Shown: positions 14,295 to 64,000, numbered from the stretch's first letter. The stretch: 64,000 nt of DNA from Escherichia coli O127:H6 str. E2348/69 (GCF_000026545.1 NC_011601.1); one strand, 5' to 3'. A program made the numbers and translations. Notes: generated by a model not told the origin, from the sequence alone.

Positions 14295-14741
14295 CTTGTC
14301 CTCATTGAATAAGCGGGGCTGACAACTTTTCCATGGCGAAATTATCACCACGAAACCCAGCATCGGAGCCACTCCCGGTCCCCAACGCAATCGTTCTCTT
14401 TTGCCTGAACTTACCACCGAAACAGACTGTTAACCATAAGGTAAAATTGATCATCACATTAGCTTATGGTTAAAAAATGCAAAAATCGCAACAGAATAAA
14501 AAACCAAAAAACACTCCTTTTTCTATAAAAAGATGATGTAATGAGAAAGTTAATTTGAATAAGACAATATTAAGCGCTAAAAAAATGTCAAAAAACACTA
14601 AATCAAAAACCCATAACATTAGAAAATATAATGCGAAAACGGAGGTTAAATTAGTTTATTTCAAATGAGGAAAATCCCCCGGCGAAAAAACCGGGAGATG
14701 AAAGTGTGATGGGTATCAAATAAACAGCAGAAGAGAAATAT
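14295..14741 (-). promoter_or_regulatory. long AT-rich gcvTHP control region, including a terminator-like hairpin downstream of ubiI
   Basis: About 450 bp noncoding, strongly AT-rich from about 14440 to 14700; hairpin CCCGGCGAAAAAACCGGG near 14676-14700. Individual regulator binding sites not resolved by eye. Confidence 0.4.
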
Positions 14742-20416: not shown

Positions 20417-20469
20417 GGGCGACACACCTGCATCGCCCTGATTGACATCGTTGATTCTTTAACCTAATT

Positions 20470-20616
20470 TAGTGAGTAAGGGTAAGGGAGGATGACTCCT
20501 CCCCTGAGACTGACTGTTAATAAGCTGGGAAACTTATGAGTAACAGTACAATCAGTATGATGACAAGTCGCATCATAACCCTTCTCCTTCAAGCCCTCGC
20601 TTCGGTGAGGGCTTTA
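20470..20616 (+). ncRNA. sibC: Sib-family antitoxin sRNA (SibC-like), antisense to ibsC
   Basis: Fully overlaps ibsC on the opposite strand; GGGTAAGGGAGG...CCTCCCCTGAGACTGACTG motif; ends in hairpin AGCCCTCGCTTCGGTGAGGGCTTT. Boundaries approximate. Confidence 0.5.
20517..20576 (-). CDS. ibsC: Ibs-family type I toxin, 19-aa hydrophobic peptide
   Basis: Minus-strand ATGATGCGACTTGTCATCATACTGATTGTACTGTTACTCATAAGTTTCCCAGCTTATTAA translates to MMRLVIILIVLLLISFPAY*. Confidence 0.6.
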   Translation of the reverse strand: MMRLVIILIVLLLISFPAY

Positions 20617-20751
20617 CCGTTACAGCCCCATGCTGCCCTGCCATCGTAAATCCCCATTAAATAAACACAACGCATTGATCTGACTTTGATTTATTTTCTG
20701 GAGCAGGCTCGCAAAGTAGAATGCGCAATGCGGCAACGGTGTGGAGAAGGG

Positions 20752-20784
20752 ATAAAAAAACGGGCAAGTCAGTGACCTGCCCGT
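20752..20784 (-). terminator. rho-independent terminator of serA
   Basis: Minus-strand hairpin CGGGCAGGTCACTGACTTGCCCG followed by TTTTTTT, 20 bp downstream of the serA stop. Confidence 0.75.
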
Positions 20785-20804
20785 TGATTTTCAGAGAAGG
20801 GGAT

Positions 20805-24747: not shown

Positions 24748-25830
24748 ATGTCTAACGTGCAGGAGTGGCAACAGCTTGCCAACAAGGAATTGAGCCGTCG
24801 GGAGAAAACTGTCGACTCGCTGGTTCAGCAAACCGCGGAAGGGATCGCCATCAAGCCGCTGTATACCGAAGCCGATCTCGATAATCTGGAGGTGACAGGT
24901 ACCCTTCCTGGTTTGCCCCCCTACGTTCGTGGCCCGCGTGCTACTATGTATACCGCCCAACCGTGGACCATCCGTCAGTATGCTGGTTTTTCCACAGCAA
25001 ATGAGTCCAACGCTTTTTATCGCCGTAACCTGGCCGCCGGGCAAAAAGGTCTTTCCGTTGCGTTTGGCCTTGCCACCCACCGTGGCTACGACTCCGATAA
25101 CCCACGCGTGGCGGGCGACGTCGGCAAAGCGGGCGTCGCTATCGACACCGTGGAAGATATGAAAGTTCTGTTCGACCAGATCCCGCTGGATAAAATGTCG
25201 GTTTCGATGACCATGAATGGCGCAGTACTACCAGTACTGGCGTTTTATATCGTCGCCGCAGAAGAGCAAGGTGTTACACCCGATAAACTGACCGGCACCA
25301 TTCAAAACGATATCCTCAAAGAGTATCTTTGCCGCAACACCTATATTTACCCGCCAAAACCGTCAATGCGTATTATCGCAGACATCATCGCCTGGTGTTC
25401 CGGCAACATGCCGCGATTTAATACCATCAGTATCAGCGGTTACCATATGGGTGAAGCGGGTGCCAACTGCGTGCAGCAGGTAGCATTTACGCTCGCCGAT
25501 GGGATTGAGTACATCAAAGCAGCAATCTCCGCCGGGCTGAAAATTGATGACTTCGCCCCTCGCCTGTCGTTTTTCTTTGGCATTGGCATGGATCTGTTTA
25601 TGAACGTCGCCATGTTGCGTGCGGCACGTTATTTATGGAGCGAAGCGGTCAGTGGATTGGGCGCACAGGATCCGTATAACAACGTTATCCGCACCACCAT
25701 TGATCATTGTGCACATCCCATGTATCGGGATTATCTGCATCGCTATCTGGAAAATGCGCCTGGCGGACATATTCACCACGATCTTCAGCAATATGCTGAA
25801 GCATCGTGGCGGTATAACGATGATTTCTGA
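24748..25830 (+). pseudogene. scpA: methylmalonyl-CoA mutase (Sbm/ScpA), N-terminal fragment only
   Basis: N-terminal ~325 aa match mutase sequence (…[31 protein letters not shown]); the frame then departs from mutase sequence near 25702 and stops at 25830; the C-terminal B12-binding domain is absent. Confidence 0.75.
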
Positions 25831-26656
25831 TTGAATAAAGATATTCCTGCATATACATCGGCCTGTGCGGCGCATCAAAATATTTCAGCGTTGCCGGATT
25901 CACCAGTCGCCAGGCAAAATGCGGGATCACCGTCAGAAAATGTCCGCGCTCCACGGCGCTGATTTTGGCCATAAAACTGTAGGGACGATAAATAATGGTG
26001 GGATTGATCCCACAAGGTCGCATATTCGCATCAATCATTGCTTCGAAGTTGGCCCGGTTCTGAAAGCGCATTTGTAGCCAGGGTAGCTCCTGAAGCAACT
26101 CTTGCTCTTGTCGCTCTTCATAACGACGAGAAACGAGAAAGCCCAATCGCAGCGGCGGTAGTTCACTGATAGTCAGGTTTTCCAGTTCCTGAACTCGTGC
26201 AGATACATGCTGTGGGGAGATAATAAAATCTAACTGACGGTCAAAAAGATTATCGATAACGCCATTTGCGCTGAACTCAACTGGCTGGGCGGTCACGCCT
26301 TCGTACTTATCTCCGAGACTAATCAACTGATCAAAAATAATGGTCGGATAAGTATTATCTATGCCTATCACAATGTCTCGTGAACGACGTCCTGAGTTAT
26401 GGATTTCATTATCAATCGCAGAAAGTCGTTGATAAACCGGGAACAGTTTTTGATACAGTTCCTGTCCGGCTTTATTGAGGCTGATATTATTATCTTTGCG
26501 GGTAAATAGCGTATAGCCAATTTGTTCTTCCAGCGCGGCAATGCTTTTGCCAAATCGCGAAGCCGTCATATGGATTTTTTCTGCCGCCCGGGCAATATTA
26601 TTGGTTTGCGCTAATAAAATGAAATTGCGCATCTTTTTCGAAATAAAAATGTCCAT
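25685..26656 (-). CDS. ygfI: LysR-family transcriptional regulator (YgfI-like)
   Basis: 323-aa ORF with N-terminal HTH ([21 protein letters not shown]); its 3' end overlaps the truncated sbm ORF by 146 bp; start could be the second Met at 26632. Confidence 0.75.
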
Positions 26657-35109: not shown

Positions 35110-35774
35110 AACAGTTTCGCTATTGCCCGACACACTCAACGCATCCTCCGTTCTGTTATGACTTTCACTATGTCAAACCGGGGATGGTCGCCATCTTTGG
35201 TGACAACGGCAGTGGCAAAAGTACGCTGGCGCAGCTGATGGCGGGCTGGTATCCGGACTTTCTACCAGGAGAGATAACCGGCACGGGGACGCTTCTCGGT
35301 ACGCCCATTGGGCGTCTCCCGCTTAATGAACAATCCGCCACCATCCAGCTCGTCCAGCAATCGCCCTATTTGCAGCTCTCCGGCTGTACCTTTAGCGTGG
35401 AAGAAGAAGTTGCCTTTGGGCCAGAAAATCTGTGTCTTGCTGAAAAAGAGATTATGGCGCGGATTGACGCCGCCCTGGCCCTGACCGAGTGCCAGCCGTT
35501 GCGCCATCGTCACCCGGCAACACTCTCCGGTGGAGAGACACAGCGTGTGGTCATCGCCTGCGCCATCGCGATGCAGCCAAAGCTCTTAATTCTTGATGAA
35601 GCCTTTAGCCGCCTGACGCCGAAGGCCAGCGAAATGCTGTTGCAGCGCTTACAACACTGGGCGCTTGAACGTGGTTCGCTGATTATTCTTTTTGAACGTC
35701 ATCACACACCTTTCCTGAACCACTGCCAGCAAGCGTGGCAATTGCAAAACGGAGCGCTCCAGCCACTATGTTAA
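35091..35774 (+). CDS. ECF transporter ATPase component (EcfA-like ABC ATPase)
   Basis: Walker A GDNGSGKST, ABC signature LSGGETQR, Walker B LLILDEA; GTG at 35091 or ATG at 35097. Confidence 0.8.
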   Translation: MDMVTLEQFRYCPTHSTHPPFCYDFHYVKPGMVAIFGDNGSGKSTLAQLMAGWYPDFLPGEITGTGTLLGTPIGRLPLNEQSATIQLVQQSPYLQLSGCTFSVEEEVAFGPENLCLAEKEIMARIDAALALTECQPLRHRHPATLSGGETQRVVIACAIAMQPKLLILDEAFSRLTPKASEMLLQRLQHWALERGSLIILFERHHTPFLNHCQQAWQLQNGALQPLC

Positions 35775-63930: not shown

Positions 63931-64000
63931 TTAGTACTGATTGAAGATCTGCTGGATCTGCTGCGGATCTTTAGTTTGCGTCAGAGCCAGTTGCAGCAGA
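63931..64000 (-). CDS. ansB: L-asparaginase II, C-terminal fragment (5' part beyond window end)
   Basis: Minus-strand translation …LLQLALTQTKDPQQIQQIFNQY* read directly; expected synteny after yggM. Confidence 0.8.
   Translation of the reverse strand, partial: LLQLALTQTKDPQQIQQIFNQY

What the first reader, a model, noticed from the sequence alone, without database searches (positions are those of the whole stretch)
20470..20616. sibC/ibsC type I toxin-antitoxin locus with a variant toxin C-terminus
A 19-codon hydrophobic ORF on the minus strand (MMRLVIILIVLLLISFPAY) lies fully inside a plus-strand region that ends in a hairpin, the layout of an Ibs toxin with a Sib antisense RNA. The toxin ends in FPAY where I recall SAY-type endings for Ibs peptides, so this may be an allelic variant. 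This locus is easily missed by ORF-length filters.
Basis: partly seen in the sequence, partly recalled or inferred. Interest (0 to 1): 0.3.

Follow-up and report, generated by a model that had tools for sequence, protein, structure and literature searches.

The report
Known sibC/ibsC toxin-antitoxin, common allele
This is the well-known SibC/IbsC small-RNA/toxic-peptide pair of E. coli, here in strain E2348/69, and its "variant" peptide ending (FPAY) is a common, already annotated natural allele, so the finding is correct but ordinary.

Summary
The 19-codon ORF (minus strand, 20576..20517) translates exactly as described. It lies wholly inside a plus-strand Sib RNA gene: Rfam SIB_RNA scores 136.5 bits (cut-off 56), and Pfam Ibs_toxin scores 47.3 bits (cut-off 27). 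The window is 100% identical to E. coli O127:H6 E2348/69, where RefSeq already annotates this ORF as ibsC (WP_071525914.1). The site between fau and serA is the K-12 sibC/ibsC position.

The only coding difference from K-12 IbsC is Ser17Pro (AGC to CCA). It is not unusual:
- The exact 77-nt allele occurs in 963 of 5,426 complete E. coli genomes.
- K-12 IbsB also ends in FPAY.
- Pro is the majority residue at position 17 across the family (26 of 49 peptides). Ser, as in K-12 IbsC, is the rare one.

One modest addition: the changed triplet is SibC nt 49-51, in the loop of the experimentally defined target-recognition domain TRD1. Among E. coli sibC alleles, variation concentrates there (4 of 4 sites against 9 of 137; p = 4.5e-5). 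The peptide polymorphism may therefore reflect diversification of the antisense-RNA recognition loop.

Verdict: already known, low interest.

The parts
20442..20470 (+). Putative sibC promoter: -35 TTGACA (20442-20447), 17-nt spacer, -10 TAATTT (20465-20470), 7 nt before the inferred +1 at 20478
   Evidence: Sequence read. The perfect -35 hexamer is conserved and forms positions 1-6 of the Rfam SIB_RNA model. The +1 is placed by alignment to the K-12 sibC annotation. The generic promoter scan did not flag it because the -10 matches only 3 of 6, so the assignment is inferred.
20478..20618 (+). SibC antitoxin sRNA (141 nt), cis-antisense to ibsC
   Evidence: Rfam RF00113 at 136.5 bits. Aligns to K-12 sibC (b4446) with 5 differences in 141 nt. 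Same MFE structure as K-12 SibC, -55.3 kcal/mol, z = -4.9.
20523..20545 (+). SibC target-recognition domain 1 (TRD1, nt 46-68), with its 8-nt P5 hairpin loop at 20525-20532
   Evidence: TRD1 coordinates come from Han et al. 2010 (PMC2943612), mapped through the K-12 alignment. The loop position comes from the fold. The P5 stem is conserved in 52 family members, with a compensatory G-C/C-G switch at pair 39-67.
20526..20528 (.). The variable triplet: SibC nt 49-51 (UGG here, GCU in K-12), which is ibsC codon 17 on the other strand (CCA Pro here, AGC Ser in K-12)
   Evidence: Alignment and translations. It is the same triplet (G49CU51) that Han et al. mutated to UGC to retarget SibC to ibsD.
20576..20592 (+). 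SibC target-recognition domain 2 (TRD2, nt 99-115), antisense to the ibsC start codon and Shine-Dalgarno sequence; identical to K-12
   Evidence: Han et al. 2010; alignment.
20591..20614 (+). SibC terminator hairpin (10-bp stem, 4-nt loop) followed by UUUACC
   Evidence: Fold. Identical to K-12. Stem pairs are kept in 47-51 of 52 family members, with compensatory changes at pairs 120-131 and 121-130. The generic terminator scan did not flag it because the U tract is short.
20517..20576 (-). ibsC ORF: 19 codons plus stop, encoding MMRLVIILIVLLLISFPAY
   Evidence: Translation. Pfam PF13956 Ibs_toxin at 47.3 bits, cut-off 27. RefSeq CDS ibsC, WP_071525914.1, at exactly these coordinates in the identical genome.
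20584..20589 (-). ibsC Shine-Dalgarno sequence AAGGAG, 7 nt upstream of the ATG
   Evidence: Read directly from the sequence. It lies within the target of SibC TRD2.
20478..20636 (-). Inferred ibsC mRNA (about 159 nt, 60-nt 5' UTR), with a weak promoter-like TTGTGT-16 nt-TACGAT at 20670..20643
   Evidence: Inferred, not shown. Han et al. mapped the K-12 ibsC 5' end and used a 159-nt transcript. They report ibsC G51/G53 pairing with SibC C107/C109/C110, which places ibsC +1 opposite SibC nt 159. This region is identical to K-12. The promoter hexamers are my reading of the sequence, and the scan found none.

Best explanation
This is the chromosomal sibC/ibsC type I toxin-antitoxin module of E. 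coli, here in EPEC strain E2348/69. The minus strand encodes IbsC, a 19-residue hydrophobic membrane peptide. In K-12 its overproduction depolarises the membrane and stops growth. The plus strand encodes SibC, a 141-nt constitutive antisense RNA that overlaps the whole ibsC ORF and its ribosome-binding site. SibC recognises ibsC mRNA through two independent domains. TRD1 is a hairpin loop complementary to codons 16-18 near the 3' end of the ORF. TRD2 is a single-stranded stretch over the Shine-Dalgarno sequence and start codon. Pairing spreads from these contacts, translation is blocked and the mRNA is degraded. The FPAY ending is a common natural allele (Ser17Pro relative to K-12). The three changed bases sit in the TRD1 loop. 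Because the two genes share the same DNA, the antisense RNA and its target change together, so cognate repression is preserved automatically. What is shown here: identity, anatomy, conservation and allele frequency. What is inferred from K-12 and Salmonella experiments: expression, toxicity and repression.
For: - Rfam SIB_RNA scores 136.5 bits against a gathering score of 56.
- Pfam Ibs_toxin scores 47.3 bits against a cut-off of 27.
- The window is 64,000/64,000 identical to NZ_LT827011.1, where RefSeq annotates ibsC at these coordinates.
- The synteny is the same as K-12 sibC (b4446)/ibsC (b4665) between fau and serA.
- SibC differs from K-12 at 5 of 141 nt, and the MFE fold is identical.
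- TRD2, the Shine-Dalgarno sequence, the start codon and the terminator are identical to K-12.
- The mechanism and the TRD1/TRD2 mapping come from Han et al. 2010, PMC2943612. Toxin properties come from the review PMC8309996.
- Exact 77-nt allele counts among 5,426 complete genomes: window 963, K-12 1,546, FGAY allele 1,837.
- Pro17 is found in 26 of 49 family peptides across Enterobacteriaceae species.
- K-12 IbsB ends in FPAY. K-12 IbsE, annotated 'toxic peptide', has Pro17.
- In Salmonella IbsA, alanine scanning found only positions 3 and 11 essential. The window peptide keeps a basic residue 3 (Arg) and Leu11 (a preprint).
Against: Nothing contradicts the identification. The gaps are these:
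- There are no expression data for this strain.
- Toxicity of the Pro17 form of IbsC itself has not been tested in any paper I could read. Mok et al. 2010 and Fozo et al. 2008 are not in the held library.
- The review states that the C-terminal residues of IbsC are needed for toxicity, so an effect of Ser17Pro on potency cannot be excluded.
- The generic promoter and terminator scans did not flag the sibC signals.
- NCBIfam has no model that hits either the window peptide or K-12 IbsC.
Confidence: 0.97

Rival explanations
1. The module is a decaying relic. Ser17Pro puts a helix-breaking proline into the C-terminal part that IbsC needs for toxicity, so the toxin is inactive in this lineage and the locus is drifting.
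For: The review PMC8309996 reports that residues 6-19 of IbsC, including the C-terminus, are needed for toxicity. All three bases of codon 17 differ from K-12. E2348/69 has lost or damaged other Sib/Ibs copies: it has three modules against five in K-12, and one of them is cut by ISEc13.
Against: The ORF, Shine-Dalgarno sequence, start codon, TRD2, terminator and -35 box are all intact and nearly identical to K-12. The exact allele is kept in 963 genomes. Pro17 is the majority state in the family, and IbsE, with Pro17, is annotated as toxic in K-12. The Pfam score is higher than for K-12 IbsC. The Salmonella IbsA alanine scan tolerated substitution at every position except 3 and 11.
Confidence: 0.04
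2. The FPAY codon arose by gene conversion from a paralogous ibs copy, such as the ibsD-type gene whose codon 17 is GCA, one base from CCA. It did not arise by mutation in place.
For: Three adjacent base differences from K-12 are unlikely to be independent point mutations. The window triplet UGG is one base from the SibD-type UGC. The sequences flanking the loop are identical between sibC and sibD for 12 nt on one side and 8 nt on the other.
Against: The nearest diagnostic sites on both sides (SibC nt 36 and nt 59) are sibC-type, not sibD-type, and nt 51 still differs from sibD. A simple conversion tract from ibsD therefore does not reproduce the allele. The closest relatives of the window allele are the fau-proximal copies of the tandem sibC pairs: UGGC in O157:H7, and an identical peptide in the GTDB E. 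coli representative. E. albertii and Escherichia sp. E1V33 also carry Pro17 at the fau-serA site. This suggests that Pro17 is old at this locus and that K-12's Ser17 is the derived state.
Confidence: 0.1
3. The short ORF is a chance reading frame, and the region encodes only a non-coding sRNA.
For: A 19-codon ORF is short enough to occur by chance, and ORF finders skip it. It falls below the 20-aa floor of the ORF listing.
Against: Pfam Ibs_toxin gives E = 1.8e-12 over the full 19 residues. A consensus Shine-Dalgarno sequence sits at the right spacing. The ORF is intact at three syntenic sites in 49 of 52 modules from species-representative genomes of Escherichia, Salmonella, Citrobacter, Kluyvera and other Enterobacteriaceae genera. 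RefSeq annotates it as a CDS. Published work on K-12 IbsC reports toxicity.
Confidence: 0.01

Closest known systems
E. coli K-12 sibC (b4446) / ibsC (b4665), between fau and serA
   Same: Same chromosomal position, same orientation and same 141-nt antisense layout. 136 of 141 SibC bases are identical, and the predicted fold, TRD2, Shine-Dalgarno sequence, start codon and terminator are identical too. 18 of 19 peptide residues match.
   Different: Codon 17 is CCA (Pro) rather than AGC (Ser), which makes SibC nt 49-51 UGG rather than GCU in the TRD1 loop. There are also two bases different in the P2 hairpin loop (nt 17-18) and one base in the promoter spacer.
The fau-proximal copy of the tandem sibC/ibsC pair in O157:H7 and many other E. 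coli ('Ibs family toxin' WP_100635201.1), and copy 1 of the GTDB E. coli representative
   Same: This is the closest sequence to the window allele, with 2 mismatches in 77 nt. It shares the Pro17 codon CCA, the P2 loop and the promoter-spacer base. Copy 1 in strain SCPM-O-B-8794 encodes exactly the window peptide.
   Different: In those genomes the module is one of two tandem copies (781-bp against 388-bp intergenic region). The O157 copy has Leu16 (LPAY; loop UGGC), and its downstream flank has diverged.
K-12 IbsB / SibB (yegL-mdtA site)
   Same: The peptide ends in the same SFPAY, and the antisense architecture is the same.
   Different: It is a different paralog at a different site, with an 18-residue peptide and diverged TRD1 and TRD2 sequences.
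Loop-initiated cis-antisense control systems (hok/Sok, CopA/CopT, RNAI/RNAII) - from general knowledge and as cited by Han et al.
   Same: A short hairpin loop in the antisense RNA makes the first contact with a complementary loop in the target. Han et al. note a YUNR motif in the ibsC loop. Pairing then spreads and the target is silenced.
   Different: Sib has two independent recognition domains. The toxin ORF is completely covered by the antisense RNA, so every base change is shared by both partners.

Membership tests
Rfam RF00113 SIB_RNA (Sib antitoxin sRNA) | Covariance-model score at or above the curated gathering score | tested here: met
   136.5 bits against 56, E = 5.4e-28, full model 1-147.
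Rfam RF00113 SIB_RNA (Sib antitoxin sRNA) | Encoded antisense to, and completely overlapping, an ibs ORF | tested here: met
   The ORF at 20517-20576 (-) lies inside the inferred transcript at 20478-20618 (+).
Rfam RF00113 SIB_RNA (Sib antitoxin sRNA) | Located at one of the conserved intergenic sites; for sibC, between fau (ygfA) and serA | tested here: met
   The order fau-ibsC-serA matches K-12. Across Enterobacteriaceae the modules fall at three sites: yegL-mdtA, fau-serA and yqiK-hldE.
Rfam RF00113 SIB_RNA (Sib antitoxin sRNA) | Own promoter and intrinsic terminator giving an RNA of about 140 nt | tested here: inconclusive
   There is a perfect -35 TTGACA, a weak -10, and a 10-bp G+C-rich hairpin followed by UUU at the K-12 3' end. 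The generic scans flagged neither signal. Transcript ends were not measured in this strain.
Rfam RF00113 SIB_RNA (Sib antitoxin sRNA) | TRD1 hairpin loop and single-stranded TRD2 as mapped in SibC | tested here: met
   TRD2 is identical to K-12. TRD1 is in the same P5 hairpin with three loop bases changed. The P5 stem is conserved, with a compensatory pair 39-67.
Rfam RF00113 SIB_RNA (Sib antitoxin sRNA) | Represses its cognate ibs mRNA in vivo | not testable with these tools
   Shown for K-12 SibC/ibsC by Han et al. 2010. Inferred here from perfect cis complementarity.
Pfam PF13956 Ibs_toxin (Ibs type I toxin) | HMM score at or above the gathering score over the full length | tested here: met
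   47.3 bits against 27, E = 1.8e-12, profile 1-19 of 19. K-12 IbsC scores 45.0 bits. One in-frame upstream codon was added to reach the tool's 20-residue minimum, and the match covers residues 2-20 only.
Pfam PF13956 Ibs_toxin (Ibs type I toxin) | 18-19 residues, MM start, hydrophobic core, C-terminal aromatic residue, and a Shine-Dalgarno sequence | tested here: met
   MMRLVIILIVLLLISFPAY, with AAGGAG 7 nt upstream of the ATG. The pattern matches the five K-12 paralogs and 49 peptides from other species.
Pfam PF13956 Ibs_toxin (Ibs type I toxin) | Residues reported as essential in a homolog: basic residue 3 and Leu11 (Salmonella IbsA) | tested here: met
   Arg3 and Leu11 are present. The requirement comes from a bioRxiv preprint.
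Pfam PF13956 Ibs_toxin (Ibs type I toxin) | Toxic on overproduction (membrane depolarisation, growth arrest) | not testable with these tools
   Shown for K-12 IbsC, as summarised in PMC8309996. Not tested for the Pro17 allele in any paper I could read.
NCBIfam protein family models | A hit to a curated Ibs model | tested here: not met
   No NCBIfam model hits the window peptide or K-12 IbsC. This reflects the absence of an HMM for so short a family in that library, not a failure of membership. RefSeq still names the protein IbsC.

The most novel reading that the evidence does not exclude
The peptide 'variant' may be a by-product of selection on the RNA. The four bases at SibC nt 49-52 (ibsC codon 17 plus the third base of codon 16) form the centre of the TRD1 recognition loop. 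[quoted passage not shown] On this reading residue 17 simply tolerates whatever the loop requires. A corollary concerns E2348/69 itself. It has only three modules, and its SibC loop (UGG) is one base from the co-resident SibD-type loop (UGC). SibC and the ibsD-type mRNA in this strain may therefore partly cross-regulate, which the K-12 pair does not.
Probability: 0.25. Interest if true: 0.3.

Novelty: already known. Interest (0 to 1): 0.1.

Why it matters
As found, it matters little. The locus, its mechanism and this exact protein sequence are already in the literature and in RefSeq.

Two small practical points remain. First, RefSeq's E2348/69 record annotates ibsC but has no sibC feature, so the antitoxin half of the module is invisible to anyone relying on that annotation. 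Second, the natural allelic series at the TRD1 loop offers a ready-made set of variants for testing how a cis-antisense RNA family keeps its members from cross-reacting. The loops are UGGG, GCUG, UGGC and UCCG, giving endings FPAY, FSAY, LPAY and FGAY. Han et al. addressed this question only with engineered K-12 mutants.

Tried and rejected
- **NCBIfam.** The scan gave no hit for either the window peptide or K-12 IbsC, so it is uninformative.
- **Generic promoter and terminator scans.** They flagged neither the sibC nor the ibsC signals. The only hit is the serA terminator at 20785..20759. The promoter assignments therefore rest on K-12 homology.
- **Primary papers.** Fozo et al. 2008 (PMC2597788) and Mok et al. 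2010 (PMC3009890) are not held, and the ACS Omega paper has no residue-17 data. I could not check whether Ser17Pro was among the tested IbsC mutants.
- **Gene conversion from ibsD.** I considered this as the source of the triplet. I rejected it as a simple explanation because the flanking diagnostic sites are sibC-type and nt 51 still differs.
- **Cross-talk by duplex energy.** E2348 SibC TRD1 on the resident ibsD-type target gives -33.8 kcal/mol. The non-repressing control gives -28.0 and the repressing control -37.4. The result is indecisive.
- **Family-wide entropy.** Nt 49-52 is a variable block, but it is only one of several; codon third positions, codons 3-4 and the 3' part of TRD2 also vary. 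The hot-spot claim therefore holds clearly only among closely related sibC alleles.

Full report
**1. The observation**

The sequence at 20440-20620 contains, on the minus strand, ATGATGCGACTT...TTCCCAGCTTATTAA at 20576..20517. An AAGGAG Shine-Dalgarno sequence lies 7 nt upstream, at 20589..20584.

On the plus strand, the Rfam scan of the whole window gives three matches at gathering level. One is RF00113 SIB_RNA at 20442-20592, scoring 136.5 bits against a cut-off of 56, with E = 5.4e-28 over the full model.

**2. Where the window comes from, and what is annotated there**

The fau-serA intergenic region is 100% identical to E. coli O127:H6 strain E2348/69. The whole window is identical at 64,000 of 64,000 bases to NZ_LT827011.1:3,200,702-3,264,701. 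RefSeq annotates a CDS named ibsC, 'type I toxin-antitoxin system toxin IbsC', WP_071525914.1, at exactly 20517-20576 on the minus strand.

The gene order is ygfB, zapA, ssrS (6S RNA), fau, ibsC, serA, rpiA, the same as in K-12 MG1655. K-12 annotates both sibC (b4446, 141 nt) and ibsC (b4665) at this position. The E2348/69 record has no sibC feature, which is an annotation gap rather than a biological difference.

**3. Anatomy**

Aligning the 388-bp intergenic region with K-12 gives 99% mean column identity. Transferring the K-12 sibC ends puts SibC at 20478-20618.

- **Promoter.** A perfect -35 TTGACA lies at 20442-20447, and TAATTT follows 17 nt later. The Rfam model begins at this -35 box and stops before the terminator. 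Its hit coordinates are therefore shifted relative to the transcript.
- **Fold.** SibC from the window and from K-12 give the same minimum-free-energy structure at -55.3 kcal/mol. The window z-score is -4.9, and none of 200 shuffles folds as well.
- **Helices.** The structure has a closing stem (nt 1-6 with 101-106), a P2 hairpin (nt 9-26), a P5 hairpin (nt 36-70, with an 8-nt loop at 48-55), a P6 hairpin (nt 79-100) and a terminator hairpin (nt 114-137, window 20591-20614).
- **Differences from K-12.** Inside the transcript there are only two groups of differences: two bases in the P2 loop (nt 17-18), and the triplet at nt 49-51 in the P5 loop. That triplet is UGG here and GCU in K-12.
- **Effect on the peptide.** On the other strand the triplet is ibsC codon 17, CCA (Pro) here and AGC (Ser) in K-12. 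It is the only coding difference.

**4. Family membership**

The peptide matches Pfam PF13956 Ibs_toxin over all 19 profile positions, at 47.3 bits against a cut-off of 27 and E = 1.8e-12. K-12 IbsC scores 45.0 bits. To meet the tool's 20-residue minimum I included one upstream in-frame codon, and the match covers only the 19 real residues. NCBIfam has no model that hits either peptide.

The five K-12 paralogs end in SFQAY (IbsA), SFPAY (IbsB), SFSAY (IbsC), SFAAY (IbsD) and SFPTY (IbsE). Position 17 is thus the variable site of the family, and the FPAY ending already exists in K-12 IbsB.

**5. How common the allele is**

I used 77-nt queries that differ only at the loop and counted the genomes holding an exact copy, out of 5,426 complete E. 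coli genomes.

| Ending | SibC nt 49-52 | Source of query | Genomes |
|---|---|---|---|
| FGAY | UCCG | O157:H7 copy 2 | 1,837 |
| FSAY | GCUG | K-12 | 1,546 |
| FPAY | UGGG | window | 963 |
| LPAY | UGGC | O157:H7 copy 1 | 307 |

Other FPAY sub-variants also exist, namely MMQL... and MMRF..., so 963 is a lower bound for the FPAY ending. About 1,870 genomes hold two places for the query. In O157:H7 these are two tandem modules in a 781-bp fau-serA spacer. The fau-proximal copy is the closest relative of the window allele, with 2 mismatches in 77 nt.

**6. Conservation beyond E. coli**

I scanned one genome per species with the conserved Sib/Ibs core, leaving the loop and codons 3-4 free. This returned 51 loci from Escherichia, Salmonella, Citrobacter, Kluyvera, Pseudocitrobacter, Phytobacter and Enterobacter. 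The modules fall at three syntenic sites: yegL-mdtA, fau-serA and yqiK-hldE. This agrees with the inference of Fozo et al. 2010 that the common ancestor of Enterobacteriaceae had at least three copies (PMC2887945).

Among 49 intact peptides, residue 17 is Pro in 26, Ala in 8, Gln in 7, His in 5, Ser in 2 and Gly in 1. The endings LPAY and FPAY together make up 22. At the fau-serA site itself:
- E. albertii has ...SCPAF.
- Escherichia sp. E1V33 has ...SLPAY.
- The GTDB E. coli representative has a tandem pair whose first copy encodes exactly the window peptide.

Pro17 therefore looks like the old state at this locus, and K-12's Ser17 looks derived.

**7. Mechanism (from the literature, mapped onto this sequence)**

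Han et al. 2010 (PMC2943612) showed that SibC has two independent target-recognition domains.
- **TRD1** (nt 46-68, the P5 loop) pairs inside the ibsC ORF and is sufficient for repression.
- **TRD2** (nt 99-115) pairs with the translation-initiation region and needs the closing stem.

Pairing then spreads from these contacts. Repression is specific to the cognate pair. Changing G49CU51 to UGC, the SibD sequence, let SibC act on ibsD through TRD1.

In window coordinates, TRD1 is 20523-20545 and TRD2 is 20576-20592. TRD2 is identical to K-12. The window's changed triplet is exactly G49CU51. Because the RNA and its target are two strands of one duplex, the change is automatically compensated in the cognate pair.

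On the toxin side, IbsC overproduction depolarises the membrane and kills or arrests cells (review PMC8309996). A 2025 preprint on Salmonella IbsA reports inhibition of the Fo sector of ATP synthase. It also reports that only H3A and L11A abolish activity in an alanine scan. The window peptide has Arg3 and Leu11. I infer, but have not shown, that the Pro17 form is toxic.

**8. What the 'variant' may mean**

I compared six full-length fau-serA modules from the E. coli clade. All four sites at nt 49-52 vary, against 9 of the other 137 sites (Fisher one-sided p = 4.5e-5). The two tandem copies in O157:H7 differ at three of these four sites but at only two sites elsewhere.

The hairpin that presents the loop is conserved in 52 distinct family members. 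Seven core pairs are kept in at least 49 of the 52. Pair 39-67 switches completely between G-C (21 sequences) and C-G (31).

Family-wide, nt 49-52 is one of several variable blocks and not the only one. Han et al. had already noted that TRD1 and TRD2 lie in variable regions of the five K-12 paralogs. The allelic series within a single locus extends that observation modestly.

**9. The strain's Sib/Ibs repertoire**

E2348/69 has three Sib matches in all.
- This sibC.
- A single module between yqiK and hldE. It has a SibD-type TRD1 and a SibE-type TRD2, and it encodes an IbsD-type peptide.
- A SibB-type module between yegL and mdtA. An ISEc13 end cuts its terminator hairpin.

The window SibC loop (UGG) is one base from the resident SibD-type loop (UGC). 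The TRD1 duplex energy on the non-cognate target is -33.8 kcal/mol. That lies between the K-12 pair that does not cross-react (-28.0) and the engineered pair that does (-37.4). The figure is suggestive only.

**10. Verdict**

The finding is correct and well located, but it describes a known, annotated module carrying a common allele.
- Novelty: already known.
- Interest: about 0.1.
- Most novel reading not excluded: the codon-16/17 polymorphism reflects diversification of the antisense recognition loop, with possible partial cross-talk in this strain. I put its probability at about 0.25 and its interest, if true, at about 0.3.

Noticed in passing
window 20478-20618: RefSeq's E2348/69 record annotates ibsC but has no sibC ncRNA feature, although the Rfam match is strong (136.5 bits) and K-12 annotates sibC at the homologous place. 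This is an annotation gap.
   Followed up: yes
window 20442-20592 (Rfam hit) against 20478-20618 (transcript): The Rfam SIB_RNA model starts at the -35 TTGACA of the promoter and ends before the terminator hairpin. Its hit coordinates are therefore offset from the real transcript by about 36 nt at the 5' end and lack about 26 nt at the 3' end.
   Followed up: partly
L006 1418-2198 (E. coli O157:H7 Balcarce_14.2, fau-serA spacer): The Sib/Ibs module is tandemly duplicated (781 bp against 388 bp). The two copies differ mainly in the TRD1 loop (UGGC against UCCG; peptides ...SLPAY and ...SFGAY). About 1,870 of 5,422 genomes hold two places for the 77-nt query.
   Followed up: partly
L062 1725-2060 (E2348/69, yegL-mdtA spacer; outside the window): The strain's SibB-type module (peptide MMKLLIIVVLLVISWPAY) has its Sib terminator hairpin interrupted by the end of an ISEc13 (IS4-family) insertion. 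The insertion probably also separates the ibs ORF from its promoter.
   Followed up: partly
L005 23724-23873 (E2348/69, yqiK-hldE spacer; outside the window): There is only one Sib/Ibs module where K-12 has two (sibD, sibE). It has a SibD-type TRD1 and ORF but a SibE-type TRD2 region, as expected from a deletion by recombination between the tandem copies.
   Followed up: partly
SibC nt 39 and 67 (window 20516 and 20544): There is a fully compensatory G-C/C-G switch (21 against 31 of 52 sequences, all paired). It links the base just after the ibs stop codon with the third position of Leu codon 11. This is RNA-structure constraint acting on a synonymous codon position.
   Followed up: partly
L066 518-577 (E. 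coli 2021CK-01784): A natural IbsC variant, MMQLVIILIVLLLISFPAY, lacks the basic residue at position 3. The Salmonella IbsA preprint reports that residue as needed for toxicity.
   Followed up: no
window 43127-43169 (-): An Rfam match to ES036 (CssrF) sRNA, 50 bits against a cut-off of 37.6. It lies between a prohibitin-family gene and tkt and is not annotated in RefSeq.
   Followed up: no
window 24748-26656: RefSeq marks truncated remnants of a methylmalonyl-CoA mutase family gene and of srsR, abutting each other. This suggests that the operon K-12 carries next to argP has been deleted in this strain; that K-12 operon is recalled from memory and was not checked here.
   Followed up: no
window 35768-36445: An ABC transporter ATP-binding gene of an ECF-type transporter cluster is annotated as a pseudogene with an internal stop.
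   Followed up: no
window 14585-14668 (+): A 27-codon 'hypothetical protein' (WP_122988963.1) is annotated in the gcvT-ubiI intergenic region. I did not examine it.
   Followed up: no
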